DNA from: Fimbriimonadales bacterium
GTDB lineage: Bacteria > Armatimonadota > Fimbriimonadia > Fimbriimonadales > JABRVX01
Length of the DNA stretch: 64,000 nucleotides
Assembly: GCA_045862955.1 (NCBI GenBank)
Contig: BTVI01000019.1
Coordinates: 981-64,980 of the forward strand
Direction: 5' to 3'
Shown here: piece after piece, positions 12,760 to 63,802 of the stretch
Layout: each line of letters begins with the position of its first letter
Position numbering within the stretch: the first letter of the stretch is position 1
The notes under the pieces: generated by a model
Databases searched by the model: none
Told to the model about the DNA's origin: nothing
What the model saw: the letters and a program-made list of their open reading frames with translations, nothing else
Translations under genes and position numbers: made by a program

Positions 12760-12765
12760 CTGGAC

Positions 12766-13842: not shown

Positions 13843-13875
13843 GAAAAAGCGCCCGCCGACCCCTCGGCGGGCGCT
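13843..13875 (-). terminator. Intrinsic terminator downstream of rplT
   Basis: The minus strand reads AGCGCCCGCCGA-GGGG-TCGGCGGGCGCT followed by TTTTC. It begins ~20 nt after the rplT stop and lies ~55 nt upstream of the pheS start. Confidence 0.7.
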
Positions 13876-13894
13876 CCGAACCTCGTGATGGGGT

Positions 13895-14245
13895 CTATGC
13901 CTGCCGAACGGAGTCGACTAGCGCCCGAAACGCGTCGGCATCATTCACGGCCATGTGCGCCAGCGTCTTGCGGTCGAGTCGAATGCCCTTGTCCGCCATG
14001 CCATGGATCAGTTCGCTGTACTTGAAGTCCAACTCTTTGCAGGCTGCGGTGAGCCGCACGATCCATTGTCGGCGGAAGTCCCGCTTCTTGTTGCGTCGGT
14101 CGCGATAGGCGTACAGGCCGGACTTCATCACCTGCTCGTTGGCACGTTTGAAGACGTTCTTCTTCCGGCCCCAGTAGCCCTCCGCCCTCTCGATGACCTT
14201 CTTGTGGCGCTTGTGGGTGGTGACTCCCCTTCGAATTCTAGCCAT
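13895..14245 (-). CDS. rplT: 50S ribosomal protein L20
   Basis: 116 aa. MARIRRGVTTHKRHKKVIERAEGYWGRKKN is a canonical L20 N-terminus. Confidence 0.95.
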   Translation of the reverse strand: MARIRRGVTTHKRHKKVIERAEGYWGRKKNVFKRANEQVMKSGLYAYRDRRNKKRDFRRQWIVRLTAACKELDFKYSELIHGMADKGIRLDRKTLAHMAVNDADAFRALVDSVRQA

Positions 14246-14257
14246 CTCTCAGCCGCC

Positions 14258-14452
14258 TCACATTCCCAACATGCGCTTCATGCGCTTCTCGAAGGCGGGG
14301 GTGAGCGTCGCGTCGCTGCCGAGTCGCCGCTTGCGATTGCCCCGCTTGTGAATGAACATGTGGCTGTCATATGCACGCCGGCGGATCAGCTTGCCCGATC
14401 CGCTTACCTTGAAGCGCTTTGCCGCCGTCTTGCTTGTCTTTAGCTTCGCCAA
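14258..14452 (-). CDS. rpmI: 50S ribosomal protein L35
   Basis: 64 aa. MAKLKTSKTAAKRFKVSGSGKLIRRRA is canonical L35. Confidence 0.95.
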   Translation of the reverse strand: MAKLKTSKTAAKRFKVSGSGKLIRRRAYDSHMFIHKRGNRKRRLGSDATLTPAFEKRMKRMLGM

Positions 14453-14504
14453 CTCATCCTCCGCCGGTGTCTCGGCAACCGGCCCTCTTCCACTCTCGAG
14501 TGAG

Positions 14505-15107
14505 TTACTTGGCCGCCTCGCCGCTCGTCTCGGGTTCTGGCTCGGCCTGTTCAGCGTCTTGCGCCTTCTTGGCAGCCTGCGCGGCTCCCGGCTTCGGCGC
14601 GAGGATCATGATCATGAAGCGCCCATCCACCTTGGGCTCGCGCTCGACGACCGCGATGTCCTGCGTAGCCTGGACGAACCTCTCCAGAGCCTGCCGACCC
14701 ATCTCGGGTCTGGTGATCTCCCTACTTCGGAACAGCACCGAGCACTTCACCTTGTGCCCTTCGTTCAGGAACCGAATCACGTTTCTCAGCTTCACTTCCA
14801 GGTCGTGATCGTCGGTCCCGGGGCGCATGCGAACGGCTTTGAGTTCCGAGACGGTCTTCTTCTTCTTTCCTTCGCGCTCGCGCTTCTCTTGTTCGTACTG
14901 GTACTTGCCGTGGTCCACGATGCGAGCCACGGGAGGGCGCACGTTCTGATTCACGAGAACCAGGTCCAGCTCCGCCTCGTGCGCCAGCGCCAGCGCCTTG
15001 TCGGCCTCCATTGTCCCGAGGTTCTCGCCGTGCTCGTTGATTACGACCAGTTCGCGGTAGAAACGCGGAATGCGCTCGTTCATGAGCGTGCGCTCGGGTG
15101 GGCGCAT
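14505..15107 (-). CDS. infC: Translation initiation factor IF-3
   Basis: NERIPRFYRELVVINEHGENLG...ARIVDHGKYQYEQEK... matches IF-3, and it sits in the conserved infC-rpmI-rplT order. The start is uncertain (ATG 15107 or 15083). The Lys/Ala-rich C-terminal tail is unusual. Confidence 0.9.
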   Translation of the reverse strand: MRPPERTLMNERIPRFYRELVVINEHGENLGTMEADKALALAHEAELDLVLVNQNVRPPVARIVDHGKYQYEQEKREREGKKKKTVSELKAVRMRPGTDDHDLEVKLRNVIRFLNEGHKVKCSVLFRSREITRPEMGRQALERFVQATQDIAVVEREPKVDGRFMIMILAPKPGAAQAAKKAQDAEQAEPEPETSGEAAK

Positions 15108-15304
15108 GTCCCGCCTAAGATGCCGGATTTCTTATCACCTTGGCCCTCTGGCCTCCTCGAGAATGTCCACGCAGTATAACCGACGCTCGAATCCGGAGTC
15201 AAGCAAGCGGTGCGTACTGCCGGGATCAGTCTCGGTTCGGTGGAACTCGGGGCTCAGGGCCCGCAGCCGCTATAGCAGGCCTTAGCCGAAGGTAGACTGC
15301 CCGC

Positions 15305-16387
15305 ATGCCTGTAACCGAAGAGATGGTCCTGGATGCGCTCCGGCCCGTTCGCGATCCCGACCTCAGCAGAAGCATCGTTGACCTCGGCTTTGTAAAGAAC
15401 ATCAAGATCTGCGGCGGCAACGTGGCCTTCACGCTGGAACTGACCACCCCGGCGTGTCCGGTCAAGGACCTCCTGCAGCAGGAGGCCCACGATGCCGTTA
15501 TCGCTCTGCCCGGGGTGGACAGCGTGAACGTGGAGATGACCGCGAAGGTCATCGAAGGGCGGACGTCGGATCACGAGCTAGTGCCCGACGTAAAGCACGT
15601 TATTGCGGTTGCCAGCGGAAAGGGTGGCGTCGGCAAGAGCACCGTGAGCTGCAACCTCGCAATCTCGCTGGCCGAAACCGGGGCATCGGTGGGGCTGGTG
15701 GACCTCGACGTGTACGGCCCGAGCATTCCGCGCATGATGGGTTGCCACGAGGAGCAGCCGCGCGTGTTCGAGCACAAGCTGGTGCCCATCCTGGCTCATG
15801 GCGTCAAGCTGATGTCCATCGGCTTCATGATGCGCGACGAGCAGGCGGGCATCTGGCGGGGGCCTATCGTGGCAGGGACCGTCCGGCAGCTCTTCGGCGA
15901 GGTGGAGTGGGGAGAGCTGGATTACCTCATCGCGGACCTGCCGCCAGGAACGGGCGATGCGCCGATGTCCGCGGCCCAGTTGGTCCCGCTCGCGGGAGTG
16001 GTGATCGTGATGACGCCGCAGGAGGTCGCAGCGCGCATCGCGAGCAAGTCCATTACGATGTTTCGTAAGATGAACTCCCCCGTCATCGGAGTCATCGAAA
16101 ACATGGCGGGGTTCGTGTGCCCCAACTGCGGCGTGGAGAGTCAGGTGTTTCCGGGGCCCGGTGGACGGGAACTGGCGCGCCAGTTCCAGGTGCCGTTCCT
16201 CGGCAGCATTCCGTTGGACCCGCTCGTCGGGGAATCGAGCGACAAGGGGCTGCCTAGCGTATTGGGTTACCCCGACCGACCCCAGGCGCATGCATTCCGC
16301 AAGATCGCAGGGCAGCTTGCCGCGCAGGTGACGATCTTCCACATGACGGGCGAGTTCGTGCCTGAGGGGTCCGCGGCTTCGGACTAG
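15305..16387 (+). CDS. apbC: Fe-S cluster carrier ATPase (Mrp/ApbC/NBP35 family) with an N-terminal DUF59 domain
   Basis: Deviant Walker A motif SGKGGVGKST. CPNCG cluster-ligand motif. The N-terminal VRDPDLSRSIVDLGFV is MIP18/DUF59-like. Confidence 0.85.
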   Translation: MPVTEEMVLDALRPVRDPDLSRSIVDLGFVKNIKICGGNVAFTLELTTPACPVKDLLQQEAHDAVIALPGVDSVNVEMTAKVIEGRTSDHELVPDVKHVIAVASGKGGVGKSTVSCNLAISLAETGASVGLVDLDVYGPSIPRMMGCHEEQPRVFEHKLVPILAHGVKLMSIGFMMRDEQAGIWRGPIVAGTVRQLFGEVEWGELDYLIADLPPGTGDAPMSAAQLVPLAGVVIVMTPQEVAARIASKSITMFRKMNSPVIGVIENMAGFVCPNCGVESQVFPGPGGRELARQFQVPFLGSIPLDPLVGESSDKGLPSVLGYPDRPQAHAFRKIAGQLAAQVTIFHMTGEFVPEGSAASD

Positions 16388-41147: not shown

Positions 41148-41698
41148 ACATCCACGCTACCACGATTCTGGGGGTGAAGCGGGACGGCACGGTCGCCATC
41201 GGCGGCGATGGGCAGGTGACGCTGGCGGACCAAGCGGTGGTGCTGAAACACACGGCACGGAAGGTGCGAAGGCTGGCAGGCGGGTCGGTGATCGCGGGCT
41301 TCGCAGGAGCCGTCGCCGATGCACAGGCGCTGGCCGACAAGATCGAAGGGAAGATCGAGGCCAGCCGAGGCAACCTGCGAAGGGCGGCTGTCGAGTTTGC
41401 CAAGGAGTGGCGGACGGATAAGATCCTGCGCCAGCTGAACGCGATTCTCGTGGTGGCGGACAAGGACGCGATGCTGGTGGTGACGGGCGACGGCAACGTG
41501 CTAGAACCCGACTCGGGGGTGGTGGGCGTCGGCAGTGGGGGGCCATATGCGCAGGCCGCAGCCACCGCATTGCTCGCACACACCTCGCTAAGCGCCGAGC
41601 AGATCGTGTCCGAGGCACTCTCGATCGCCGCCGACATCTGTGTGTACACCAATCGCAACCTTACCATCGAGACGATTCCGGCAGAAGGAGGCTCCTAG
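41144..41698 (+). CDS. hslV: ATP-dependent protease subunit HslV (ClpQ)
   Basis: MNIHATTILGVKRDGTVAIGGDGQVT...KHTARKVRRL...GFAGAVADA...GSGGPYA closely resembles B. subtilis ClpQ. It overlaps the xerC stop by 4 nt. Confidence 0.9.
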   Translation: MNIHATTILGVKRDGTVAIGGDGQVTLADQAVVLKHTARKVRRLAGGSVIAGFAGAVADAQALADKIEGKIEASRGNLRRAAVEFAKEWRTDKILRQLNAILVVADKDAMLVVTGDGNVLEPDSGVVGVGSGGPYAQAAATALLAHTSLSAEQIVSEALSIAADICVYTNRNLTIETIPAEGGS

Positions 41699-44022
41699 CG
41701 CCTGACGGGCAGACCGAAGCCGGTGCCTGCCGGCTGCCAATTCGCCGCCGGATCCCACTCGGTGGGAGAAGGATCGCCGGTGCGCAGCCGGATCTCCCGA
41801 AGGAACGTGTACTCGTCCTTGTGCCCTAGGTTGTAGGCGAGGTTCGGGTCTGTTACCTCTTCGAACAAGAAGTAGTGCTTGCCCTGGTAGGTGACTCTCA
41901 CCAGAGCGACCGAGGTGGCGATCCCATACGTATGAAGAACCTTGCCGTCCTGCTCCCAGATCGTTCGATCCAGCACGGCCCTTCCCTGGTCGTCGGCTTT
42001 CGTCCGATATGCGAGTTCGTCCTCGTACACCTTGGTATACCAGTCACTGCCCGTGCCCCGAGCTCTGTATGCTACCACTTCTGCACCGACGAGCGGCCTT
42101 CCCAGCTCGTCCCGATATTGGTAGATCATCTTCGCCGGCATGTCCTGCAGGAACTCGCCAATGGTAGTAGGGGCGTTGCAGTTCCCACCTCGTGCTCGCT
42201 TGCCCCGAACGCGCTCCCAGCACATCGCTTCGAAGACGCTGAACTTCCAGTAGTCGCCACCCATCTGACCCTCGTACTTCTGAATGTGTTGGATGTCTGC
42301 GTCCAAGGGCATGTAGCGCCCGAGGATCGGACCCACCTCGTCGGTGACACGGATGTTCCGCTTACCGATATCGTCGCCTCTGCCGGAGTGTACGTTGAAG
42401 CCGTAGGAGTCGACCAGGTATCGCGCATGGTTCATCTCGTGAATGTAGCCCAAACCACACCAGAAGGGTGGGTCCTCCTCTCTGCGCAGCACGCGGCCCG
42501 AATCGAGCGCCTCTATGGCCCGTTCGGGAGACCACCAGTGATTACGATCCACGATGCTTCCCGGACCGATGTCGCCCGATTCGTAGCCCCAAGTGATGTC
42601 CACCGTCTTGTCGCGTAGGTCCGGGTTGTTCGAAGGCAGCCCCCCGGCGAGTGGTAGCGCGAAATCGGGAACGATAACTAGCCTGTCCAGCCGCACTCTC
42701 TCTGTTATGCCGTTCGGGTACTCGCGATATCGCGCTTGGACGAACATCTTGTTCCATTGCCGCATCAGTCGCTGCATCCAACCTGCGAAGCTGTTAGCAT
42801 CCTTCGTCGGCAGCTTCATCTGGTGCTCGTGGTGGAACTCCCACAGCGACTGCTCCACCCACGCACCTACTAGAATGGCATCCGTCTCGATTGTGAGTGA
42901 GTTGTTCTGCGTAATCGCTTCCGCAATGCGCTGAAGTGGTCGGATCGAGAAGGATAGTTGGTGTCTCTTCGGGTCCCAGTTCCACGGAAGGTCTACGGTG
43001 ACAGATTGGGTGGACGGAGGGCCGACCGGGAGATGCACTCGCCCACTCTCGACCACCTTTCCATCCAGTTTCCACTCGTACAGGCCGACCAGCGGCGCGG
43101 TTCCCCAGTTGTACAGGTGGGCCCGCCAGGTCACGTTGGACCCGGGAAGGGGCATCCCCTCGTTGGGCCCGTCGTACGGGATGCGGGGCAGACGTTCGAT
43201 GTACCACACGTCTATGTCGGGCAGCCGATTCTGGATCCGCCGCTCCGTCCCAACGACGGTGATAGTTCTTGTTAGGTCGCCGATCCTGGCAGTCAAGGTG
43301 CCTTCACCCACCCGCTCGATGACGAACATACCGGGTGTGTCACCGAACGCCCTCAGCCCTTTGCCCCGAGCACTCCATTGCACCTTGTCGGACACGTCCA
43401 TGCGCACGTCCCCTGCCCTCGCCTCGGCCTTCAACCATATCACGGTCTGGGTGGGTTTGCTTATCGCTTCGGTGACCTCTTTTCGTCCCGCGGGAAGGTC
43501 AGCCTGGCGCCGGTCCGTCACCTGGCTGATAGTGATGCCCTCGATGCGCCCCGGAGTGCAGAACTGCCACTCTGCGATGTGCACGTAGTCGTCCCCGGTG
43601 AGGCGGTGGACATCCAGCTGAAACGCGCGAGCGGAGACGCGTTCATCGAACTTCATCTCCTGCACTTCTCCCTTGCCCTTCCGCTCGTTCACCAGTAAGC
43701 GGTAGCTTCCGCGCTTGCCCAACAGGTCGTCCCAGTTATCGGCAGCCGCCACGGACCACACATGCTCCTCGTCGATCAGATGCAGACGGATGCCGTCGAA
43801 GGCGACTGGCTCACGAAACTCCACGCGCACGAAAGCCGGATTGATGGCCGGCGTGCGGATCAGCGTCGTTCGGTCGTGGTCGAATAACTTGCTCGGGTCA
43901 CCGATGTCGAGCTTGGTGGACTCGGTACGAACTACCTTGTCCGCGACGGCGAGCGGGAGGAACACGGTGTCGGCTGGTCTAGCTTGGACGGTGAGTAGAA
44001 GGAGGAGCACTGCAGAGTACAT
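41695..44022 (-). CDS. Large secreted protein: N-terminal discoidin/galactose-binding-like domain, CARDB-like region, and an HExxH metallopeptidase-like domain (paralog of 59108..61189)
   Basis: 775 aa. Signal peptide MYSAVLLLLLTVQARPAD. The N-terminus (RVEFREPVAFDGIRLH...HIAEWQF) is F5/8-type-C-like. The HExxH motif occurs in GLGYIHEMNHARYLVDSYG. Several blocks are collinear with the 59108 protein. Confidence 0.6.
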   Translation of the reverse strand: MYSAVLLLLLTVQARPADTVFLPLAVADKVVRTESTKLDIGDPSKLFDHDRTTLIRTPAINPAFVRVEFREPVAFDGIRLHLIDEEHVWSVAAADNWDDLLGKRGSYRLLVNERKGKGEVQEMKFDERVSARAFQLDVHRLTGDDYVHIAEWQFCTPGRIEGITISQVTDRRQADLPAGRKEVTEAISKPTQTVIWLKAEARAGDVRMDVSDKVQWSARGKGLRAFGDTPGMFVIERVGEGTLTARIGDLTRTITVVGTERRIQNRLPDIDVWYIERLPRIPYDGPNEGMPLPGSNVTWRAHLYNWGTAPLVGLYEWKLDGKVVESGRVHLPVGPPSTQSVTVDLPWNWDPKRHQLSFSIRPLQRIAEAITQNNSLTIETDAILVGAWVEQSLWEFHHEHQMKLPTKDANSFAGWMQRLMRQWNKMFVQARYREYPNGITERVRLDRLVIVPDFALPLAGGLPSNNPDLRDKTVDITWGYESGDIGPGSIVDRNHWWSPERAIEALDSGRVLRREEDPPFWCGLGYIHEMNHARYLVDSYGFNVHSGRGDDIGKRNIRVTDEVGPILGRYMPLDADIQHIQKYEGQMGGDYWKFSVFEAMCWERVRGKRARGGNCNAPTTIGEFLQDMPAKMIYQYRDELGRPLVGAEVVAYRARGTGSDWYTKVYEDELAYRTKADDQGRAVLDRTIWEQDGKVLHTYGIATSVALVRVTYQGKHYFLFEEVTDPNLAYNLGHKDEYTFLREIRLRTGDPSPTEWDPAANWQPAGTGFGLPVRR

Positions 44023-44097
44023 GAGTCGGGGCCCCGATGTGGTGTGGTTGCCGTATTGTAGCCGTTGCGGGCAGCCCCATGCCCCGCGATAAGGCCG

Positions 44098-44679
44098 CTA
44101 TTCCGACGATTGCGGCGTTCGCACCCCATGCAGCGCGGCGCCCTGCTCCACCGCTGCCCGAAGGGCATCATCGTCCGTGATCACGGTGCGGAAGAGTGTG
44201 TCCAGAAGTGCGAACACGTCCAGCAAGTTGCGCACGCGAGTCTCGTAGGTCTGGGATGCTGCGCTCTTCGGCTCGTCGCGCACTAGGGCGAGGCAATCTC
44301 GGAGGGCGGTCACCGTCGGGTCCACCTCGCGCCGCTTCCGCTCGCGAACGACGCGCGAGAACATGTGCCACACGTTGGCCTCCGAGAAGTAGACGTCCTT
44401 GCGGTCGCCCGGGCGCTTGTAGCGGTGCACCATGCCCCACGCCATCAGCTCGCGCAAGTTCATGCTCGCGTTGCCGCGGCTGATGCGCAAGCGTTCGATG
44501 ATCTCGTCCATCGTCATCTGCTCTCCGGTGATGTAGAGCAGGGCATGAATCTGCGCCATGGTGCGGTTGATGCCCCACGATGAACTCATCCGGCCCCATT
44601 CCAGGATGAAGAGCTCCTGGGCTTCGGCAAGGCGTTGCGACGGCGCCGGTTTTCCTGAACTTTCACTCATGTGTTGCAT
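44098..44679 (-). CDS. GbsR/MarR-type winged-helix transcriptional regulator
   Basis: 193 aa. FILEWGRMSSSWGINRTMAQIHALLYITGEQMTMDEIIERLRISRGNASMNLRELMAWGMV matches the GbsR/OpuAR-family N-terminal wHTH. Confidence 0.65.
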   Translation of the reverse strand: MQHMSESSGKPAPSQRLAEAQELFILEWGRMSSSWGINRTMAQIHALLYITGEQMTMDEIIERLRISRGNASMNLRELMAWGMVHRYKRPGDRKDVYFSEANVWHMFSRVVRERKRREVDPTVTALRDCLALVRDEPKSAASQTYETRVRNLLDVFALLDTLFRTVITDDDALRAAVEQGAALHGVRTPQSSE

Positions 44680-44719
44680 TGTGCAGAGAGTGATGCGGCT
44701 GTGTCTACAGCCGCTGCGG

Positions 44720-45121
44720 GTATGGCTCCATCCGCCCTCCCTTCCGGGTATGCCTCCATCCGCCCTCGGATGGAGGCTTCGGGCATGCCTCCATCCGCCC
44801 TCGGATGGAGGCTTCGAGACATGGCGTGCACTTGCGGCTGCTTAGCCTCCACGTGCGCCGCTAAGCGGCCCGAACCAGACCCCCACCCCGGGTATGCCTC
44901 CATCCGCCCTCGGATGGAGGCTTCGTGACATGGGGCGCGCCCGCGGCTGCATAGCCTCCACATATGCCGCTAAGCGGCCCGAACCAGACCCCCACCCCGA
45001 CCCTCCCCCTTCCGCTGCGCTCCAGGGGGAGGGAGTTGCCTGTAACCGGCCCAACCGGCAACCGGCCCGAACCCGACCCCCACCCCGACCCTCCCCCTTC
45101 CGCTGCGCTCCAGGGGGAGGG
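44720..45121. repeat. Composite intergenic palindromic repeat cluster (REP/MITE-like)
   Basis: The hairpin GCCTCCATCCG-CCCT-CGGATGGAGGC occurs at 44752-44777, 44787-44812 and 44896-44921. A ~109-bp unit occurs twice in tandem (about 44783-44891 and 44892-45000). The hairpin CCCTCCCCC-N15-GGGGGAGGG occurs at 45001-45033 and 45089-45121. Confidence 0.85.
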
Positions 45122-45157
45122 AGGAGTTCGTCGGAGCCGCGGCCGGCCGCAGCGGAG

Positions 45158-46420
45158 CTAGTCGTCCCCGCGCGTGTTCCAGCGGAGCAGGATGAGATTG
45201 AGATCTGGCAAGTCCACCTGCGAGTTGCCATCCACATCGCCGGGAGTGTAAGGACCTTCCTTGGTGAAGTTGAGTAGCGCGATGTTGAGGTCCATCAGGT
45301 CTACGAAGTTGTCACCGTTCGCATCACCGCCAGGCAGCAGCCAGTCGAAGCCGCTAGTAGTACCACTAAGGTCGAGTGGTTGTACTACGCGCAGCCACTG
45401 TGCAGACTTGGCAGCTACGTCTACCTGTCCACTTCGTTCGGTAGTGAAGGAGTAGAAGCCGTCGATATCCAAGGGTACCACGTGCGTTTCTAGCACGTTG
45501 AGTGTTCCCGGCTCTCGCAGCTCGAAGGTGACTGGCCACATGCGCGGATCGCCGATGAAGTGGTCCATCAGCACGCGACCGGCCACTTGCTTCGTGGGGT
45601 TCTGCACCTCTACCTTGTACCAAGCCGCGGTCCCGCGCGAGATGCTGCCCGTGAAAGGGATTCCTTTGACGGTAAGGGTGTACGTGCCTTCATCGCCCGT
45701 ACCGAGCCCGAGGCCCTGTCGCGGCTGACCAGTGTCGGGGGGCCAGGTCTCGAAGGTGGAGACTGCTACGTAGTAAGTACCCGCTGCGAGGGAGCGTGTT
45801 AGCTTGGCGCGGAATCCGCTGCCCGAGTCGTCATCATATGCTATGAAGTTGCCCTGTGCATCGAAGAGCGATAGCACCGTATCCGCAATCGTCCCGTCAC
45901 CCGATGTGTCGAACACCACCTGCCCGGGCGTGATGGTCGGGCCCTGGTTTACTTGGATCGGCGCATAGGTAACACGTATGGCATACGGCCACACGTCCGC
46001 TGAGTCGAACCCCTCTATCAGAACACACCAGAGGATGTCCGTGCCATCCCAATACATGTCGAATCCACACTGGCTCGTGAGATCAACGCCTTGGACGAAG
46101 TCGTCGTTGAAGCACAGGATGAATGCGTCCGTGATGCCGTCGTAGAGCGTCATCAGGGAGTCTCCGGCCGAGGGAATGCCCTCGGCTCGGAAAGTGAAGC
46201 GGTACCAGCCGGGCTGGCCCGTGCCCGCAGTGCGGAATAGCAGGTAGTCCACGTCCAGCGCGGGTGAGATAGTGCCGACGATGCGGTCGCCTGACTGCAG
46301 CGTGCCTATTGGCGGCCCCGAAGGAAAGCTGTTGTTCGGCTCCTGCTCGGAGAAGTCGGCGGCAAAGGTGGCCGCGAGGACCATCACGGCGGCACAGGAC
46401 AGCAGTAAGCGAGCGATCAT
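45158..46420 (-). CDS. Secreted protein with PPC (pre-peptidase C-terminal)-like domains and a C-terminal type I dockerin module
   Basis: Signal peptide MIARLLLSCAAVMVLAATFA. EQEPNNSFPSG...DVDYLLF is PPC-like. The C-terminus has duplicated EF-hand-like segments, GDANGDNFVDLMDLNIALLNF and GDVDGNSQVDLPDLNLILLRW. Confidence 0.65.
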   Translation of the reverse strand: MIARLLLSCAAVMVLAATFAADFSEQEPNNSFPSGPPIGTLQSGDRIVGTISPALDVDYLLFRTAGTGQPGWYRFTFRAEGIPSAGDSLMTLYDGITDAFILCFNDDFVQGVDLTSQCGFDMYWDGTDILWCVLIEGFDSADVWPYAIRVTYAPIQVNQGPTITPGQVVFDTSGDGTIADTVLSLFDAQGNFIAYDDDSGSGFRAKLTRSLAAGTYYVAVSTFETWPPDTGQPRQGLGLGTGDEGTYTLTVKGIPFTGSISRGTAAWYKVEVQNPTKQVAGRVLMDHFIGDPRMWPVTFELREPGTLNVLETHVVPLDIDGFYSFTTERSGQVDVAAKSAQWLRVVQPLDLSGTTSGFDWLLPGGDANGDNFVDLMDLNIALLNFTKEGPYTPGDVDGNSQVDLPDLNLILLRWNTRGDD

Positions 46421-52557: not shown

Positions 52558-52577
52558 GTGGGGCGAGGAGAGTGAAG

Positions 52578-54230
52578 ATGAGGGCTTTCGGCATTCTCGT
52601 TCTCTGGCTGTGCAGCGCGGCCGTCCTAGCGCAGATCGCGGTCGCTCCGTCGCCATTGAGGCTGGCGGACCGCACCGGACCGGACTGGGGCACCGCGCTC
52701 GCCTTCGACCCCCTGGCTTACCGAGCGCTCAAGACTGCGAACGGGCGCGTGCTTCTGCGTGGGTTCCCGCTGGACGCGGGGCGCAAGGTCAACTTGGAGT
52801 TGCAGCGGTTCGAGGTATTTTCGGCACACACGCAGCTCGTGGTGGTGTACCCGGACGGCGAGCGGAGGCTCCCCTTCCCGGACGTCGTACTGCTGCGTGG
52901 TAAGGTCCAGGACGAGCCGGATTCGGAGGTCTATCTGGGCCTATCACCACACCTGAGCAACGGATGGATCAACCGCGGCGATGAACGACACATGATCTCG
53001 ACGCGGGACGGCATCACCACGATCACCGACCTCCGCACTTTGCCCACCCAACCTGCGAGCAACTGGACTTGCGAAGCTCTCATACCACCTTACACCGATT
53101 CGCATGCCGACAACGAGGTACGGATCGAGAGCGTCGGCCCCCGGATCGCATCGATCGCGGTGGAGACCGACCGCGAGTTCACGTTGCTCCGTTTTTCCAA
53201 CAACCCGACTCGTGCAGCCGAGTACGTTGCGGAGCTGTACGGAGCCATGACCTTCATCTATGAGCGAGACGTGCAGACGCGGCTGGTAGTCACCTACCTG
53301 CGACTGTGGATGACGAACGACCCGTGGGATAAGGCCAGCTCGGGCGATCAGCTGTCCCAGTACCGCGACTACTGGGTCAACAACATGGCACACATCCCTC
53401 GCGCGCTCGGGCACTTTCTGTCCGCGCGCAATCTGGGCGGTGGTGTGGCATGGGTTGGCGTAGTTTGTAACCCTTGGTGGGGGTTCGGGCTGAGCGGTAA
53501 CATCAATGGGTACTTCAACCCCAGTCTCGAACCGCATTGGAGTAACTGGGATATCTTCGTGGTAGCACACGAGACCGGTCACAACTTCGGCACCCTACAC
53601 ACACACGACGGGTACAACCCGCCGATCGACACCTGCGGCCTCGGGTGCAACGATCCGCCTTTCGTCGGCACTATCATGAGCTACTGTCATACATGCCCTG
53701 GAGGTATGTGGAATATACTGCTGCAATTCCACCCGAGGGTGATCGAGCGTATCCTGTACTACCTGCAATACGAAGCCGGGTGCAACCTCACACGTGCACG
53801 AGTGACCGGAACCGTCGATCTGCAGTACTACCTCGGCGATCCGGTCGGCTTTATGGGTGGTCTGGAGCTTCGCAATCCGGGGACGAGAACGATACGGTAT
53901 CTCGACTATCCGGCGCTCGACGCGAACAGACGCTTCACGAGCTCGTGGCTGGCAGACTGTGGAGACTACGATGCATGGCTGTATTGGGAAACCTATCTCG
54001 GCAAGACCGTTCCCAACATCGTGGTTGCCGCGCCGTCCATAGACCTGAGCGTGCTGCTGACAGCGGGTGATGCGGACTACACCAACGTGGTGGACATAGC
54101 CGATCTGACGCTAGTGTTGGCCAGCCTCGGGACCGGCCCGGGTCAAGGCGACCTGAACTGGGACGGCGCCGTGGACCTGTCCGATCTGAACATCGTGCTG
54201 ATCAACTTCGGCAAGCAGGGCGACAACTAG
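52578..54230 (+). CDS. Secreted reprolysin-like (M12B-type) zinc metalloprotease with a C-terminal dockerin module
   Basis: Signal peptide MRAFGILVLWLCSAAVLAQ. The zinc motif is VVAHETGHNFGTLHTHD (HExxHxxGxxH). The C-terminus carries GDADYTNVVDIADLTLVLASLG and GDLNWDGAVDLSDLNIVLINFG. Confidence 0.7.
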   Translation: MRAFGILVLWLCSAAVLAQIAVAPSPLRLADRTGPDWGTALAFDPLAYRALKTANGRVLLRGFPLDAGRKVNLELQRFEVFSAHTQLVVVYPDGERRLPFPDVVLLRGKVQDEPDSEVYLGLSPHLSNGWINRGDERHMISTRDGITTITDLRTLPTQPASNWTCEALIPPYTDSHADNEVRIESVGPRIASIAVETDREFTLLRFSNNPTRAAEYVAELYGAMTFIYERDVQTRLVVTYLRLWMTNDPWDKASSGDQLSQYRDYWVNNMAHIPRALGHFLSARNLGGGVAWVGVVCNPWWGFGLSGNINGYFNPSLEPHWSNWDIFVVAHETGHNFGTLHTHDGYNPPIDTCGLGCNDPPFVGTIMSYCHTCPGGMWNILLQFHPRVIERILYYLQYEAGCNLTRARVTGTVDLQYYLGDPVGFMGGLELRNPGTRTIRYLDYPALDANRRFTSSWLADCGDYDAWLYWETYLGKTVPNIVVAAPSIDLSVLLTAGDADYTNVVDIADLTLVLASLGTGPGQGDLNWDGAVDLSDLNIVLINFGKQGDN

Positions 54231-59107: not shown

Positions 59108-61189
59108 CTACTGCTGTGGTAGCAGCACTTCTACCAGCTCACTTTCCATGCTCAGGTCTCCCACAGCAGTGACCGCGAAACGGTTCGTTTTCGAGAACCA
59201 ATACACGTCCTCGGGATACTCCCTCAAGTCGACCAGCGCCTCGAAGGTGTTCGGTCCCACTGTCGCAACGGGGAACCAGGGCCGATCGTTCAGCCCATCA
59301 TATCCGATGCGCCGATACACGCGGTAGCCGATTGCGCGATCGAAGTAGTGCTGCTCTCGTACGTCGGGTGACGGCTGCCATGTAACCTTCACGTGGTGCT
59401 CGTCCACCTTCTCCGCCTTCACGTTAGTGGGGGGTAGGGGAGACGTGAGCGAGCGATAGGGTGTCTTCAGCACAGTCACGTAGCGGTCCTTCTGTCCTCG
59501 GAACCACGAGCGGATAAACTCCGTCGCCTCCAACCAGAAGTAGACAGGCCTTTCATACTTCGTCACCTTGACGAGCATCAGGCCACGACCACCTACTACG
59601 TTGATGTTTCCCCACGGATTGGGTTTGCGATGGAAGCCGTTCAGCGTGCGCACTTCCATCACCGGACGATTTGGTAGGCGAAGATAGCCCTCCCGATCGG
59701 TGGTCCCCACGATCACGGGGTCCTTCGAAACGGGCTTGCCGAAGTCGCCGTCCTCGATTACGGGGAAGTACTTGACGCCGTGGTCCTCGCCTGGGGTGCC
59801 GTTCGGATCCACCGTGCAACCACGTTGGTAGATCTCGACCTTGGCGTCGGGCACTCCGAGGCCGTTCACGTCCGTGATACGCAGGTAGTTCTCGTCCGGT
59901 ATCGCGAAGTAGTAGTCGCCGAAGTGCCCACGCGGCTTGTCCCATGTCATGTTCAGGTAGCCAGCGTCAACTTCGTTGTAGAGGTGCGGACCGTGCCAGT
60001 GCATCATGGTCTGTGGGTGGTTTTGGAAGTGAGTCACTTTCTCACCGTTGTCCGGCGCGACGTGATCCTCATGGCCGGCGTAATCCAACGCATAGTAGTC
60101 AACGAGTCCGAGTTGGTGACCCAACTCGTGTGGCAGCGACCACTCTGTCTGGTTTCGCCATTCCTTGCTAGCGGGCTCCCACTTCTTGTTGCGGTCCTGG
60201 TCGTCGATCCATATCCAGCCGCCCTGGTCATAGGCGATGCCGTCTGGCGACGTGCGCTCTTTGACAGCCTGGTCCACGTCGTCTGTGTAGTAGATCTTGT
60301 CCAGTCGCACTCGAGCGATGATGCCCTTCGGCGAAGCGGGCCACACGCTGTGCGCGAACAGCAGGTTCATGATGTCCAAGTGCCAGCGGTAGAAATCCTC
60401 GAACGAAAAGGTGCCATAGGCTGTCCGCTTCTCGTGCCAAGCCTTCACCCTTCCATTGCTGACAATATAGAAGTAGCTGAACGCCCATAGCGGATCGGTG
60501 GCCTCGTTGTTGATGGTAGCAATCTCTTTCTGATCGGTAACAATGCGCAGGGTCGCTTCGTGGAAGCCGTTGCGCCAATGCCACTTCAGCTGCGTGGTGA
60601 ACTCTTCCATCTCCTTCAGCTCTCGGCGGCACCGCTCGCGCTTCATCTCCTGCCCATCAATCAACCACACCACCTCGAAGGGCTTCGCGGTGGCGAAGCC
60701 GAGATTGCGGACGTGGCCGGTTAGGGTGATCTCCTCGCCCGCCTCGTACTCGAGCTTCAGCTTTTTGGCGGCCTCCTCGGGCTCCAGGAAGATACGCTCG
60801 CCTAAGTCGGGGATCAGCGGGGAGTTACCGAGGCTGGGCCGCCCGTACACGTCGTAGTTGACCTTGCCGTGAAGGCCGGCCAGCTTGGGGTTCATCTCGA
60901 TGTAGGTCACGGTCAGATCGGGGAGATTGGGCTTCACATCCCACTCGTCCGGCCGCTCGATCTTGACCGACTTGACGGCGCTGCGAGGGATGACCCGTGG
61001 AGGGCTGCCGACCTTCTCCAGGTTCTCCCAGACCGTGTAGCGGATGCCTTCGTCGCGGACATAGCACCCTTGCAGTATCGTGCCGTCCTTCAGCTCCAGC
61101 GTGTCCGCTGGGACGGCGATCGGAAGGAAGCCGGCAGCGACGAGAAGCGCCGCTGCCCGCACCGCTGTACGACCGATGATGCCTTTCAT
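59108..61189 (-). CDS. Large secreted HExxH metallopeptidase-like protein (paralog of 41695..44022) with a C-terminal Fn3-like region
   Basis: 693 aa. Signal peptide MKGIIGRTAVRAAALLVAAGFLPIAVPA. WSLPHELGHQLGLVDYYALDY resembles the M6 (immune inhibitor A) HExGHxLGLxDxY signature as I remember it. The C-terminus PPTNVKAEKVDEHHVKVTWQPS is Fn3-like. Confidence 0.6.
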   Translation of the reverse strand: MKGIIGRTAVRAAALLVAAGFLPIAVPADTLELKDGTILQGCYVRDEGIRYTVWENLEKVGSPPRVIPRSAVKSVKIERPDEWDVKPNLPDLTVTYIEMNPKLAGLHGKVNYDVYGRPSLGNSPLIPDLGERIFLEPEEAAKKLKLEYEAGEEITLTGHVRNLGFATAKPFEVVWLIDGQEMKRERCRRELKEMEEFTTQLKWHWRNGFHEATLRIVTDQKEIATINNEATDPLWAFSYFYIVSNGRVKAWHEKRTAYGTFSFEDFYRWHLDIMNLLFAHSVWPASPKGIIARVRLDKIYYTDDVDQAVKERTSPDGIAYDQGGWIWIDDQDRNKKWEPASKEWRNQTEWSLPHELGHQLGLVDYYALDYAGHEDHVAPDNGEKVTHFQNHPQTMMHWHGPHLYNEVDAGYLNMTWDKPRGHFGDYYFAIPDENYLRITDVNGLGVPDAKVEIYQRGCTVDPNGTPGEDHGVKYFPVIEDGDFGKPVSKDPVIVGTTDREGYLRLPNRPVMEVRTLNGFHRKPNPWGNINVVGGRGLMLVKVTKYERPVYFWLEATEFIRSWFRGQKDRYVTVLKTPYRSLTSPLPPTNVKAEKVDEHHVKVTWQPSPDVREQHYFDRAIGYRVYRRIGYDGLNDRPWFPVATVGPNTFEALVDLREYPEDVYWFSKTNRFAVTAVGDLSMESELVEVLLPQQ

Positions 61190-61317: not shown

Positions 61318-63255
61318 GTGTCCGTCATAGCCCTTCTTCTCTGTGCTCTGATTGCCCCGCAGCAGGCTGCCAAAGAGAGCGTGGTCTGGCTGCAGGACCT
61401 CGACATTGCCCGAATGACACAGGAATGGGGAAGCCCGCGTGCAGGCACGTCGGTGGAGCGGAACCCGATCCGGATCGGCGGTCGGGAGTTCACGCGTGGC
61501 CTGGGCACCCACGCTGTCAGCGAGTTGACGCTGGATCTCGCTGGCGAGGCGCTGGTGTTCAAGGCCATGGTGGGTGTGGACGACGAGTCGCAACACAAGG
61601 GTAGCGTCGAGTTCCAGGTCATCGTGGACAACCGGCTCGCCTTCACGTCTGGCGTCCTGAGGGGCGGGCAGGCCCCCGTGCCCGTCTCCGTGGACCTCAC
61701 CGGAGCCTCCACGCTTACACTGATGGTGCTGGACGCCGACGACGGGATTGACCACGACCATGCCGATTGGGCCAACGCGATGATCGTGCTGCGCTCCGCA
61801 TCGAGCCGTAGACCAGTGGCGATTCACCGGCCACCCGAGCCCGCGCCCGAGATCGCCTCCGGAGACCCGCCGCAGCCACGCATCCACGGCCCTCGCATCG
61901 TGGGTGCAACTCCAGGTCACGACTTCCTATTCCTTATCCCCGCAACGGGCGAGCCCCCGCTCACGTTCTCGGCCGAGAACCTGCCTGCCGGGCTGACACT
62001 CGACACACGTAAGGGCATCATCACCGGTCGCGCTCCGGCCGAGGGCAAAACGGTGGTGACGCTGCGGGTCCGCAACCATCTGGGTGAGGACAAACGCAAG
62101 CTGGCCATCGTCACTGGCAAGCACAAGCTCGCGCTCACTCCACCACTCGGATGGAACTCATGGAACGTGTGGGCTGGAGCCGTGGACGATGCGAAGGTGC
62201 GAGCCGCCGCCGAATGGATGGTGAAGAGCGGACTGGCTGCCAAGGGCTTTCAATACATCAACGTGGACGACTGCTGGGAGGGTAAGCGCGGACCAGACGG
62301 AGTGCTGGGCACCAACGAGAAGTTTCCGGACATGAAGGCGCTAGCCGATTACGTTCACTCCCTGGGGCTGAAGTTCGGTGTGTACTCCTCACCCGGCCCG
62401 AAGACGTGCGCAGGATTCGAGGGCAGCTACGGCCACGAGGAATTGGATGCGCGCACCTGGGCTGCATGGGGAGTAGACTACATCAAGTACGACTGGTGCT
62501 CCTATGGTGCCATCGCAAAGGATAACAGCCTGGCGGAGCTTCAGAAACCCTATCGCGTAATGCGCGATGCGCTCGACAAGTGCGGCCGGGACATCGTATA
62601 TAGCCTATGCCAGTACGGGATGGGCGAGGTCTGGAAATGGGGCGCCGAAGTAGGTGGCAACTGCTGGCGCACCACGGGGGACATCACCGACACCTGGGGA
62701 AGCATGTCCTCGATAGGCTTCGGGCACGATGGCCGAGAGAAGTACGTCGGTCCCGGTGCCTGGAACGACCCGGACATGTTAGTGGTGGGAGTGCTCGGCT
62801 GGGGCCCGAACGTCCGACCGACGAGGCTGACTCCCAACGAGCAGATCACCCATATCACGCTATGGTGTCTGCTAGCGTCTCCGCTGCTGTTAGGTTGTGA
62901 CCTATCGCAACTCGACAAGTTCACGCGCGACTTGCTGACGAACAGTGAAGTGCTAGACGTGAACCAGGACCCACTAGGCAGGGCGGCAGGTCGCAGGGCC
63001 AAAGAGGGCATGACCGAGGTGTGGGCTCGGCCGCTTTGGGACGGGACGGTGGCGGCCGGGCTGTTCAACCGAGGCCCGGTCCGCACGCGGGTCACGGCGC
63101 GATGGTCGGACCTCGGCCTGCGTGGTAGGCAGCCGGTACGTGACCTCTGGCGGCAGAAGGACCTGGGCAGTTTCGATCGCGAGTTTTCGGTGGAGGTTCC
63201 CGCTCACGGAGCCGTGCTAGTTAAGATCGGTACTGCTCGGGAGGGGGAGCTGTAG
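61318..63255 (+). CDS. Secreted alpha-galactosidase: NPCBM carbohydrate-binding module, Ig-like domain, and GH27 catalytic domain
   Basis: GTG start. The NPCBM pattern is WLQDLDI...GTSVERNPIRIGGREFTRGLGTHAVSEL...VGVDDES..GSVEFQV. The GH27 motifs are LGWNSWN, INVDDCW, YIKYDWC (nucleophile Asp) and WNDPDML (acid/base Asp). Confidence 0.85.
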   Translation: MSVIALLLCALIAPQQAAKESVVWLQDLDIARMTQEWGSPRAGTSVERNPIRIGGREFTRGLGTHAVSELTLDLAGEALVFKAMVGVDDESQHKGSVEFQVIVDNRLAFTSGVLRGGQAPVPVSVDLTGASTLTLMVLDADDGIDHDHADWANAMIVLRSASSRRPVAIHRPPEPAPEIASGDPPQPRIHGPRIVGATPGHDFLFLIPATGEPPLTFSAENLPAGLTLDTRKGIITGRAPAEGKTVVTLRVRNHLGEDKRKLAIVTGKHKLALTPPLGWNSWNVWAGAVDDAKVRAAAEWMVKSGLAAKGFQYINVDDCWEGKRGPDGVLGTNEKFPDMKALADYVHSLGLKFGVYSSPGPKTCAGFEGSYGHEELDARTWAAWGVDYIKYDWCSYGAIAKDNSLAELQKPYRVMRDALDKCGRDIVYSLCQYGMGEVWKWGAEVGGNCWRTTGDITDTWGSMSSIGFGHDGREKYVGPGAWNDPDMLVVGVLGWGPNVRPTRLTPNEQITHITLWCLLASPLLLGCDLSQLDKFTRDLLTNSEVLDVNQDPLGRAAGRRAKEGMTEVWARPLWDGTVAAGLFNRGPVRTRVTARWSDLGLRGRQPVRDLWRQKDLGSFDREFSVEVPAHGAVLVKIGTAREGEL

Positions 63256-63312
63256 GAGGGTAACACAGATGGACCGGATCGCAGGGGGGCCTGACCGTAT
63301 CACCCCCATCCC

Positions 63313-63703
63313 GTCATGCTGAGCCTGTCGAAGCACGGCTGAGCCCGTCGAAGCATGACAGAGCGATAGCCACGGCACTCCTCCCACTCCGTCATGCTGA
63401 GCCCGTCGAAGCATGCGACCCCATCCCTTTGCGGACCTCCAAGTACCGTCATGCTGAGCCTGTCGAAGCATGACAGAGCGATAGCAACAGCACTCCTCCC
63501 ATCCCGTCATGCTGAGCCTGTCGAAGCATGACAGAGGGACAGCCACAGCACTCCTCCCACTCCGTCATGCTGAGCCCGTCGAAGCATGCGACCCCATCCC
63601 TTTGCGGACCTCCAAGGACCGTCATGCTGAGCCTGTCGAAGCATGACGGAGAGATAGCCACGGCATTCCTCCCATCCCGTCATGCTGAGCCTGTCGAAGC
63701 ATG
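63313..63703. repeat. Array of 7-8 regularly spaced 25-nt palindromic repeats (GTCATGCTGAGCCYGTCGAAGCATG) with two alternating classes of ~33-nt inter-repeat sequence
   Basis: Copies start at 63313, 63391, 63448, 63506, 63564, 63621 and 63679, plus a partial copy at ~63338. The period is 57-58 nt. The higher-order unit of ~173 bp is repeated twice. Each repeat is an 8-bp stem (GTCATGCT/AGCATGAC). Confidence 0.9.
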
Positions 63704-63802
63704 ACACCACCCACCGCATGCCATCGCTTGCAGCCACCAACTTGGCGGCTTCAGGCATCCTGCATCGACAAACCCACCATGTCGGGTAGGTGGCCGTTGC
63801 AG

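What the first reader, a model, noticed from the sequence alone, without database searches (positions are those of the whole stretch)
41695..44679. Large secreted discoidin-HExxH protein paired with a GbsR-type regulator: member 1 of an uncharacterised paralogous family
The 775-aa protein shares collinear blocks with the 693-aa protein at 59108-61189.
- LPDIDVWYIERLPRI vs LPDLTVTYIEMNPKL
- VTWRAHLYNWGTAP..YEWKLDGKVV vs ITLTGHVRNLGFAT..VVWLIDGQEM
- NGITERVRLDRLVIVPD vs KGIIARVRLDKIYYTDD
- IHEMNHARYLVDSYG vs PHELGHQLGLVDYYA

Both have signal peptides ending ..PADT. This copy adds an N-terminal F5/8-type-C-like domain. It lies 75 nt downstream of a GbsR/MarR-type regulator, whose own upstream region is filled with palindromic repeats.

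I cannot place the family beyond HExxH...LVD.Y, which is M6-like at best.
Basis: partly seen in the sequence, partly recalled or inferred. Interest (0 to 1): 0.6.

Follow-up and report, generated by a model that had tools for sequence, protein, structure and literature searches.

The report
Uncurated secreted zinc-peptidase family, ten paralogs
The 775-residue gene encodes a secreted, sugar-binding protein whose core looks like a zinc protease of a large family that no database has described; the genome holds ten diverged copies, and the neighbouring regulator is a local accident rather than part of the system.

Summary
The 775-aa and 693-aa proteins are homologous (BLASTP E = 7e-8), and both carry HExxH followed by Asp six residues after the second His.

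**The family.** It is much larger than two genes.
- This 3.36-Mb Fimbriimonadia-like genome has ten paralogs. Their cores are 17-46% identical.
- Public data hold at least 957 clusters (at 50% identity) with E <= 1e-30, across Armatimonadota, Planctomycetota, Verrucomicrobiota, Ignavibacteria, Calditrichota, Bacteroidota and Myxococcota, including cultured Sorangium cellulosum So ce56.

**The conserved module.** It is a CARDB domain, a ~250-aa catalytic domain, and a CarboxypepD_reg-like beta-sandwich. Variable glycan-binding or anchoring modules flank it. In the target these are a CBM32/discoidin fold and an Ig domain.

**Database status of the catalytic domain.** Pfam, NCBIfam and PDB sequence searches find nothing. 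The M6 model does not match. Foldseek gives no significant PDB neighbour, but its weak top hits are almost all metzincins (ADAM17, ADAM10, ulilysin).

**Best reading (0.72).** It is a secreted Zn endopeptidase of an uncurated, metzincin-like family that uses Asp as the third zinc ligand and is targeted to glycans. The substrate is unknown.

**The regulator.** The MarR/GbsR pairing occurs only in near-identical genomes. The palindromes upstream of the regulator are REP-like repeats found across the genome.

The parts
41695..44022 (-). Target gene, 775 aa: signal peptide, CBM32-like domain, Ig-like domain, CARDB-like domain, HExxH catalytic domain, C-terminal beta-sandwich
   Evidence: ORF; AF2 model pLDDT 94.1, pTM 0.89; 81 full-length-range homologues
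43978..44022 (-). Sec-type signal peptide MYSAVLLLLLTVQA|R (no lipobox Cys)
   Evidence: read from the sequence; residues 1-14 have low pLDDT; the cleavage site is inferred
43543..43968 (-). CBM32 / F5-8 type C (discoidin)-like beta-sandwich, residues 19-160
   Evidence: Foldseek PDB hits to CBM32 modules (5zu6, 4zy9, 2jda, 7jnb ZmpB CBM32) at E 1e-6 to 1e-7, TM 0.62-0.75 normalised to the target; no Pfam hit in this copy; homologue P0057 carries PF00754/PF22633
43243..43539 (-). Ig-like (Big_2-type) beta-sandwich, residues 162-260
   Evidence: AF2 secondary structure; homologues carry PF02368 Big_2
42883..43230 (-). CARDB-like domain, residues 265-380, starting with the family-wide motif PD(I/L)xVxYIE; always directly precedes the catalytic domain
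   Evidence: PF07705 CARDB in paralogs and homologues; invariant D269, W317, N374
42133..42882 (-). Catalytic zincin-like domain, residues 381-630; no Pfam, NCBIfam or PDB sequence match
   Evidence: domain-only AF2 model pLDDT 89; Foldseek top hits are metzincins but weak
42403..42441 (-). Zinc-binding motif HEMNHARYLVDSY: H528, E529, H532, D538 (six residues after the second His) and Y540, all invariant
   Evidence: the active-site helix 525-534 ends at the position three residues after the second His
42262..42264 (-). M587 in GQMGG: candidate Met-turn methionine
   Evidence: >=90% conserved in the 40-sequence alignment; aligned in 8 of 10 paralogs, with a nearby Met in the other two (C19b TMMHW, C14 PLMDF); the structural role is inferred
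41788..42132 (-). C-terminal CarboxypepD_reg / prealbumin-like beta-sandwich, residues 631-745
   Evidence: AF2 secondary structure; weak PF13620 hits at the equivalent position in several paralogs
44098..44679 (-). MarR-family (GbsR/CudC-like) winged-helix regulator, 193 aa (or 190 aa from the second ATG); 75 nt upstream on the same strand, with no terminator-like site between
   Evidence: PF12802 1.3e-10; NF047500 CudC 4e-16, well below its cut-off; promoter/terminator scan; the adjacency is not conserved
44680..45157 (.). Intergenic cluster of REP-like palindromes (GCCTCCATCCGCCCTCGGATGGAGGC x3; CCCTCCCCCTTCCGCTGCGCTCCAGGGGGAGGG x2)
   Evidence: genome-wide 60 copies on 11 contigs and 25 copies on 18 contigs
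59108..61189 (-). Paralog 2, 693 aa: signal peptide, small N-terminal domain, CARDB, catalytic domain (HELGHQLGLVDYY at 60092-60130), beta-sandwich, FN3-like C-terminus
61318..63255 (+). Divergent neighbour of paralog 2: NPCBM + GH27 alpha-galactosidase
   Evidence: Pfam Melibiase_2 1.8e-55, NPCBM 1.3e-45; one of only three NPCBM genes in the genome

Best explanation
The gene encodes a Sec-exported, multi-domain zinc metalloendopeptidase of a large family that no curated resource describes. A fixed core (CARDB domain, ~250-aa zincin-like catalytic domain, CarboxypepD_reg-like sandwich) carries the chemistry. Inferred mechanism: H528, H532 and D538 bind Zn2+; E529 is the general base that activates the zinc-bound water; M587 packs under the metal site as a Met-turn; the invariant Y540 probably helps to stabilise the transition state. 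The spacing HExxH-x5-D matches the Asp variant of the metzincin motif (HExxHxxGxxD). In the target's subfamily the Gly is replaced by Tyr. The N-terminal CBM32-like and Ig domains are interchangeable targeting modules. Other members carry PA14, CBM6/35, CBM3, dockerin, NHL or FN3 instead. These modules would hold the protease on a glycan-rich matrix or glycoprotein. The ten paralogs are old, diverged lineages of this family and probably have different targets. The upstream MarR/GbsR-type regulator may be co-transcribed with the gene in this lineage, but it is not part of the family's logic. Shown: homology, motif conservation, domain architecture, distribution and lack of curated matches. Inferred: metal binding, peptidase activity, secretion beyond the cytoplasmic membrane, and glycan targeting.
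For: - Motif conservation: HExxH is present in 223 of 228 family proteins (230 sequences scanned; two own paralogs were missed only because their domain envelope was truncated), with D six residues after the second His in 221 of 223.
- H528/E529/H532/D538/Y540 are invariant in the 40-sequence alignment, and the equivalent residues are invariant in the 10-paralog alignment.
- Candidate Met-turn: M587 is >=90% conserved in the 40-sequence alignment, aligned in 8 of 10 paralogs, with a nearby Met in the other two.
- In the AF2 models (pLDDT 94 and 89) the HExxH helix 525-534 breaks three residues after the second His, where metzincin helices turn.
- The Foldseek PDB search with the catalytic domain alone returns metzincin catalytic domains for all of its first 31 hits: ADAM17/TACE, ADAM10, ulilysin, ADAMTS-5 (best E 0.055, prob 0.75).
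- The N-terminal domain matches CBM32 modules, including those of the ZmpB peptidase.
- Homologues swap PA14, F5/8C, CBM6/35, CBM3, Big_2, dockerin and NHL around the same core.
- All ten paralogs start with hydrophobic signal-like N-termini.
- PMC3890501 defines HEXXHXXGXXD, Asp-zincins and the Met-turn. PMC9513282 shows a precedent: metzincin-type O-glycopeptidases (AMUC_1438, OgpA) that were unclassified by sequence and carry CBMs.
Against: - No statistically significant structural neighbour: 0 PDB hits at E <= 1e-3, and TM is only 0.24-0.39 for the metzincin hits.
- Profile-profile comparison with a 121-sequence M12B-like profile aligns only the HExxH pentapeptide (prob 6%).
- PDB profile searches are empty.
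- I could not inspect model coordinates, so the geometry of H528/H532/D538/M587 is not verified.
- In the target's subfamily the metzincin Gly is a Tyr (189 of 223). This is atypical, and the D-x-Y-G context also recalls aspzincins.
- There is no biochemical data for any member, and no source annotates any member as a peptidase.
Confidence: 0.72

Rival explanations
1. Same enzyme class but with a specific job: a glycoprotein-directed peptidase (O-glycopeptidase-like) that works together with exo-glycosidases on heavily glycosylated proteins carrying alpha-Gal and L-Araf, such as plant or algal hydroxyproline-rich glycoproteins (extensins, AGPs).
For: - In this genome, 2 of the 3 NPCBM alpha-galactosidase genes lie directly beside paralogs: GH27 next to the 693-aa copy and GH36 next to the 688-aa copy.
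- One paralog is flanked by GH172/DUF2961 and GH127 beta-L-arabinofuranosidase.
- The C50 pair sits with GH51 alpha-L-arabinofuranosidase, a malectin protein and an MFS sugar transporter.
- GH172 neighbours recur in four Ignavibacteria/Melioribacter loci. GH51 and GH27 each recur once beside orthologues of the target.
- GH127/GH121 act on Hyp-linked beta-L-arabinosides of extensin (PMC7263609, PMC10850190).
- A bacterial metallopeptidase specific for extensin through glycan recognition exists (Svx, PMC13164431).
- CBM-bearing metzincin O-glycopeptidases exist (PMC9513282).
Against: - The association is not general. Four orthologues of the 693-aa paralog in other genomes sit among housekeeping genes.
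- Only about 10 of 133 immediate neighbours in 83 foreign loci are CAZyme-like.
- The target gene itself has no glycosidase neighbour in this window.
- The C2 and C4 paralogs sit beside other peptidases (Tricorn/S41, M61) instead.
Confidence: 0.18
2. A zincin-fold hydrolase that acts on a non-protein amide or ester bond (for example a peptidoglycan, exopolysaccharide substituent or lipid-linked substrate) rather than being a protease.
For: There is no detectable relationship to any characterised peptidase family. The consistent fusion to carbohydrate-binding modules is more typical of carbohydrate-active enzymes than of proteases.
Against: To my knowledge, every characterised HExxH zincin with a His/His/Asp or His/His/His/Glu metal site hydrolyses peptide (amide) bonds. 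The weak fold neighbours are all endopeptidases. CBM-bearing peptidases are well documented (PMC9513282).
Confidence: 0.07
3. A non-catalytic surface adhesin or structural protein in which HExxH is a relic.
For: Five of 228 family proteins have lost HExxH (for example HDVLH). The many Ig/CARDB/FN3-type domains resemble adhesins.
Against: H, E, H, D and Y are invariant across paralogs that share only 17-46% identity. That conservation is not expected for a relic.
Confidence: 0.03

Closest known systems
Metzincins with Asp as third zinc ligand (snapalysin, MEROPS M7; immune inhibitor A / PrtV, M6): motif HEXXHXXGXXD
   Same: The spacing His-Glu-x-x-His-x5-Asp is identical. 7 of the 10 paralogs in this genome have the full HExxHxxGxxD motif. 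A conserved Met lies downstream. The proteins are secreted bacterial enzymes, often multi-domain (M6).
   Different: There is no sequence match to the Pfam M6 model or to any Pfam/NCBIfam peptidase model. The target's subfamily has Tyr in place of the Gly. The Met lies ~49 residues after the Asp, against ~10 in snapalysin (PMC3890501). The CARDB-catalytic-sandwich core is not described for M6 or M7.
Adamalysin/ADAM (M12B) and ulilysin/pappalysin (M43) catalytic domains
   Same: They are the best-ranked structural neighbours of the isolated catalytic-domain model. Domain size is similar (~250 aa), with extra helices around the sheet.
   Different: The matches are not significant (E >= 0.055, TM 0.24-0.39). 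The third ligand is His in those families. Profile-profile comparison with M12B-like proteins aligns only HExxH.
Metzincin-type O-glycopeptidases OgpA (AMUC_1119) and AMUC_1438 of Akkermansia muciniphila; M60-like/ZmpB peptidases with CBM32
   Same: They are secreted HExxH enzymes that were unclassifiable by sequence, are fused to CBMs (NPCBM/CBM51, CBM32), and use glycan recognition to choose peptide bonds (PMC9513282). The target's N-terminal domain superposes on ZmpB CBM32 modules.
   Different: They did not appear among the top 50 fold matches of the catalytic domain. Their third ligand is His (OgpA/AMUC_1438) or Glu (M60). Their hosts are mucin specialists, whereas this family lives in environmental polymer degraders.
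Aspzincins (M35 deuterolysin, peptidyl-Lys metalloendopeptidase): HExxH ... GTxDxxYG
   Same: Asp is the third ligand, followed by a conserved Tyr-Gly (here D538-S-Y540-G541).
   Different: By my recollection, the Asp lies 9-11 residues after the second His in aspzincins, against 6 here. No aspzincin structure appeared among the fold matches. A conserved Met-turn candidate is present here.

Membership tests
Zincin metallopeptidases (MEROPS clan MA) | HExxH on an alpha-helix, conserved across the family | tested here: met
   223 of 228 family proteins; invariant in the alignments; it lies in helix 525-534 of the AF2 models
Zincin metallopeptidases (MEROPS clan MA) | Zinc binding and peptide-bond hydrolysis | not testable with these tools
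Metzincins (subclan MA(M)) | Third zinc ligand (His or Asp) six residues after the second His of HExxH | tested here: met
   D at that position in 221 of 223; D538 invariant
Metzincins (subclan MA(M)) | Gly three residues after the second His, allowing the chain turn | tested here: inconclusive
   Gly in 7 of the 10 paralogs of this genome, but Tyr in the target and in 189 of 223 sampled family members. The model helix still ends at that position.
Metzincins (subclan MA(M)) | Met-turn with conserved Met beneath the metal site | tested here: inconclusive
   A conserved Met (M587, xMGG) exists, but its position relative to the metal site could not be checked without coordinates
Metzincins (subclan MA(M)) | Significant structural similarity to a metzincin catalytic domain | tested here: inconclusive
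   All of the first 31 Foldseek hits are metzincins, but best E is 0.055, prob 0.75, TM 0.24-0.39, with 0 hits at E <= 1e-3
Peptidase M6 (immune inhibitor A; Pfam PF05547) | Match to the family profile above its curated cut-off | tested here: not met
   hmmscan of all ten paralogs gives no M6 hit at E <= 0.05-0.1. PF05547 searched over the whole genome at E <= 10 gives only an unrelated 12.5-bit hit on contig C35. NCBIfam has no M6-domain hit.
Peptidase M12B / Reprolysin-like (PF13688 etc.) | Profile-level sequence homology | tested here: not met
   hhalign prob 1.6% and 6%, with only HExxH aligned; no Pfam hit
CBM32 / F5-8 type C (discoidin) domain, for the N-terminal module | Beta-sandwich fold matching CBM32 structures | tested here: met
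   Foldseek E 1e-6 to 1e-7, TM 0.62-0.75 normalised to the target, rmsd ~3 A over ~140 residues. The Pfam model is not matched in this copy. Sugar binding was not tested.
GbsR/CudC-type MarR regulators, for the upstream gene | Match to the equivalog model above its cut-off | tested here: not met
   NF047500 scores 59 bits against a cut-off of 218; only general MarR_2 membership is met (PF12802, 41.7 bits against 27)

The most novel reading that the evidence does not exclude
The family is a new MEROPS-level lineage of Asp-ligand metzincin-like peptidases. Its built-in CARDB domain and swappable CBMs make its members glycoprotein-specific endopeptidases. In this genome they act with adjacent alpha-galactosidases and beta/alpha-L-arabinofuranosidases to dismantle hydroxyproline-rich cell-wall glycoproteins of plants or algae. 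This is a bacterial counterpart of gametolysin and Svx, spread among environmental polymer-degrading phyla.
Probability: 0.15. Interest if true: 0.75.

Novelty: new variant of a known kind. Interest (0 to 1): 0.5.

Why it matters
If confirmed, this would add a sizeable peptidase family to the catalogue. It has at least ~950 clusters at 50% identity, is present in at least seven phyla, and reaches ten copies per genome. At present it is invisible to Pfam, NCBIfam, PDB-based annotation and genome pipelines, which call its members 'hypothetical', 'PA14/CARDB/FN3 domain-containing', or give outright mis-annotations. The family is concentrated in bacteria known for breaking down complex polymers, and its members carry carbohydrate-binding modules. 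It may therefore be part of the poorly understood protein side of cell-wall and glycoprotein turnover in soils, sediments and bioreactors. It is also a possible source of glycan-guided proteases for glycoproteomics.

Tried and rejected
- **Curated family and sequence searches.** Pfam and NCBIfam scans of the target, the paralog and the eight other paralogs gave no family for the catalytic domain. PDB sequence searches with single proteins and with two profiles (A3, A4) gave nothing real; the 'Pizza6' hits are a repeat artefact over 25 residues.
- **Fold searches.** Foldseek with the full-length model found only the CBM32, Ig and GH2-sandwich parts. Foldseek against BFVD viral structures found nothing, so there is no enhancin/M60-type match.
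- **Tests against named families.** The M6 Pfam model over the whole genome gave no hit on any paralog. hhalign against the window's own Reprolysin_5-like protein, and against a 121-sequence profile of it, aligned only HExxH.
- **Regulator as conserved partner.** Rejected.
- **Any conserved operon partner across 80 loci.** None was found. Only a lineage-specific PorV-like plus T9SS-CTD pair appeared in 7-8 FCB-group loci.
- **Palindromes as operator sites.** Rejected, because they are dispersed across the genome.
- **'PADT' as a sorting motif.** Rejected.
- **Earlier findings.** A look-up by sequence found no look-alike elsewhere in the scan.
- **Tools and data not available.** Model coordinates are not exposed, so the metal-site geometry could not be measured.


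Full report
**1. What is in the sequence**

The window is 62.9% G+C. It lies on contig C19 of a 3.36-Mb, 97.5%-complete assembly. The best foreign match of the target protein (90% identity) is labelled Fimbriimonadia bacterium, phylum Armatimonadota.

On the minus strand lie, in order of transcription:
- a 420-aa PPC/dockerin-like protein gene (45158-46420);
- a 478-nt repeat-filled spacer;
- a 193-aa MarR-family gene (44098-44679);
- a 75-nt gap;
- the 775-aa target (41695-44022). Its stop overlaps the stop of the convergent hslV.

**2.

BLASTP of the two proteins gives E = 7e-8, with 23% identity over 264 residues. All four quoted blocks are present.

In a 40-sequence alignment of homologues that includes both proteins, fifteen columns are invariant. 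Among them are H528, E529, H532, D538 and Y540.

**3. The family is much larger than two genes**

A profile search of the genome finds ten genes. I extracted all ten, and each has HExxH followed by D-x-Y:

| Contig | Size (aa) | Extra modules |
|---|---|---|
| C19 | 775 | the target |
| C19 | 693 | paralog 2 |
| C2 | 914 | two PA14 |
| C9 | 667 | – |
| C12 | 716 | F5/8C + dockerin |
| C4 | 895 | C-terminal F5/8C |
| C20 | 688 | – |
| C50 | 862 | NHL propeller |
| C50 | 874 | – |
| C14 | ~940-1070 | Big_2, PKD |

- Seven of the ten have the full HExxHxxGxxD motif.
- Their catalytic cores are only 17-46% identical to one another. The target and paralog 2 each have orthologues at up to 62% and 74% identity in other lineages. 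The paralogs are therefore ancient lineages and not a recent burst.
- An exhaustive profile search of 1.84 billion representatives gives 957 clusters at E <= 1e-30 and 2569 at E <= 1e-10. The conserved part is profile positions ~238-705.
- Named genome records place members in Armatimonadota, Planctomycetota (Planctomycetales, Phycisphaerae, Sedimentisphaerales), Verrucomicrobiota, Ignavibacteria/Melioribacter, Calditrichota, KSB1, Bacteroidota, Fibrobacteraceae and Myxococcota. The last group includes the cultured Sorangium cellulosum So ce56.
- Within the window's own phylum the family is patchy. It is found in 28 of 151 sampled genomes and in none of 12 genomes of the sister family in the same order. 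Copy number is usually 1-2, but three of the sampled genomes, this one included, each gave 8 matches at E <= 1e-10.

**4. Architecture**

The full-length AlphaFold model is very confident (pLDDT 94.1, pTM 0.89). It has five domains after the signal peptide:

| Residues | Domain |
|---|---|
| 19-160 | beta-sandwich |
| 162-260 | Ig-like |
| 265-380 | CARDB-like |
| 381-630 | mixed alpha/beta domain holding HExxH |
| 631-745 | beta-sandwich |

- Foldseek matches the first domain to CBM32 modules, with TM 0.62-0.75 on the target and E about 1e-6.
- Pfam on the paralogs shows that CARDB, then a stretch with no Pfam match, then a CarboxypepD_reg-like domain is the constant module. PA14, F5/8C, dockerin, NHL, FN3, Big_2 and PKD are added at either end.
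- Foreign members also add CBM6/35, CBM3 and Laminin_G_3.

**5. The catalytic domain**

No Pfam, NCBIfam or PDB sequence match exists for it:
- as a single sequence;
- as a 15-sequence profile;
- as a profile of the ten paralogs.

Public names for members are 'hypothetical', 'PA14/CARDB/FN3/carbohydrate-binding domain-containing', or evident errors. None is ever called a peptidase.

Among 228 family proteins:
- 223 keep HExxH, and 221 of those keep Asp six residues after the second His;
- the residue three positions after the second His is Tyr in 189, Pro in 16 and Gly in 10 of this sample, which is biased towards the target's subfamily;
- five members have lost the site.

A Met in an x-M-G-G context about 49 residues after the Asp is at least 90% conserved. 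It is aligned in 8 of the 10 paralogs, and the other two have a Met nearby.

I modelled residues 381-630 alone (pLDDT 89) and searched the PDB:
- No hit reaches E <= 1e-3.
- All of the first 31 hits are metzincin catalytic domains: ADAM17/TACE, ADAM10, ulilysin, ADAMTS-5. The best has E 0.055, prob 0.75 and TM 0.24-0.39.
- The model's active-site helix (525-534) ends exactly three residues after the second His, where metzincin helices turn towards the third ligand.

PMC3890501 sets out the definitions used here: HEXXHXXGXXD, Asp-zincin and Met-turn.

Against family membership:
- The M6 profile hits no paralog even at E <= 10.
- hhalign against a deep M12B-like profile aligns only the five motif residues.

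My reading is therefore 'works like an Asp-ligand metzincin, but is a member of no described family'. I could not reach model coordinates, so the metal-site geometry is inferred and not measured.

**6. The regulator and the repeats**

The upstream gene is a MarR_2 winged-helix protein. It resembles CudC/GbsR-type regulators but scores far below that model's cut-off.

- A promoter-like site sits at its start, and no terminator-like site lies in the 75-nt gap. Co-transcription with the target is plausible here.
- tblastn of the regulator against 87 homologue loci finds it only in the three loci that carry the 90%-identical orthologue.
- Orthologues at 57-62% identity in Armatimonadota, Planctomycetales and Phycisphaerales have other neighbours.
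- The palindromes upstream of the regulator occur 60 and 25 times across 11 and 18 contigs. They are REP-like elements and not dedicated operators.

**7. Context as a clue to substrate**

No conserved partner gene exists across 80 foreign loci.

In this genome, however, several paralogs adjoin glycosidases:
- NPCBM-GH27 beside the 693-aa copy.
- NPCBM-GH36 beside the 688-aa copy.
- GH172 and GH127 flanking the 716-aa copy.
- A malectin protein, GH51 and an MFS transporter around the C50 pair.
- GH2 near the C14 copy.

The genome has only three NPCBM genes, and two of them sit beside paralogs. It has two GH127 genes, one adjacent to a paralog and one about 10 kb from another.

Alpha-Gal plus beta- and alpha-L-Araf is the glycan set of extensin-type hydroxyproline-rich glycoproteins (PMC7263609, PMC10850190). 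A glycan-guided bacterial extensin protease is known (PMC13164431).

This makes a testable idea, but the evidence is thin:
- Four orthologues of the 693-aa paralog elsewhere sit among housekeeping genes.
- Only about 10 of 133 immediate neighbours in foreign loci are CAZyme-like.
- Two paralogs here sit next to other peptidases (Tricorn/S41, M61).

**8. Verdict**

The 'uncharacterised paralogous HExxH family' reading is right and understated. The regulator pairing is incidental.

The most likely function is a secreted, glycan-tethered zinc endopeptidase of a new, metzincin-like family with Asp as the third zinc ligand (confidence 0.72). The substrate is open.

Noticed in passing
window 44680-45157 and 63217-63758; genome-wide: Two families of REP-like palindromic elements (26-nt GCCTCCATCCGCCCTCGGATGGAGGC and 33-nt CCCTCCCCCTTCCGCTGCGCTCCAGGGGGAGGG) occur in clusters in intergenic DNA: 60 and 25 copies on 11 and 18 contigs. 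Another repeat cluster at 63217-63758 produces repeated 'MLRQAQHDG' pseudo-ORFs.
   Followed up: partly
window 45158-46420 (-): A 420-aa secreted protein with a PPC / DVUA0089-family domain and a C-terminal dockerin-like pair (GDANGDNFVDLMDLN..., GDVDGNSQVDLPDLN...). Similar dockerin-like tails end the C2 and C12 HExxH paralogs and the window's Reprolysin-like protease, which suggests a shared anchoring or sorting system in this organism.
   Followed up: no
G000 C19:62298-64235, C20:610-3039, C12:68560-71088 and 73404-75809, C50:5192-8515 and 12514-15790: Glycosidase genes (NPCBM-GH27, NPCBM-GH36, GH172/DUF2961, GH127, malectin/GH67N-like, GH51) and an MFS transporter lie beside HExxH-family paralogs. 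2 of the genome's 3 NPCBM genes are adjacent to paralogs.
   Followed up: partly
window 44670-44707 (-): The only sigma-70-like site in the region (TAGACA-18-CACAAT) has its -10 element overlapping the regulator's first ATG. A second ATG 9 nt downstream (MSESSGK...) is used in some public gene calls (190 aa), so the regulator mRNA may be leaderless.
   Followed up: no
window 52572-54230 (+): A bona fide Reprolysin_5/M12B-like metalloprotease (PF13688, 3.3e-18). Its relatives in Phycisphaerae commonly carry PA14 and dockerin modules. This is a second, unrelated CBM/dockerin-decorated metalloprotease lineage in the same window.
   Followed up: partly
target residues 266-280 (window 43183-43227) and the equivalent in all paralogs: The first strand of the CARDB domain carries a family-wide motif PD(L/I)xVxYIE with an invariant Asp (D269). 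Together with the invariant W317 and N374, this is unusual for a CARDB module. It hints that this domain contributes to the active site, a Ca2+ site or latency. It remains unexplained without coordinates.
   Followed up: no
P0143, P0156, P0162, P0180, P0220 (family members): About 2% of sampled family members have lost HExxH (for example HDVLH, or no His at all) while keeping the rest of the domain. They are probable pseudo-enzymes.
   Followed up: partly
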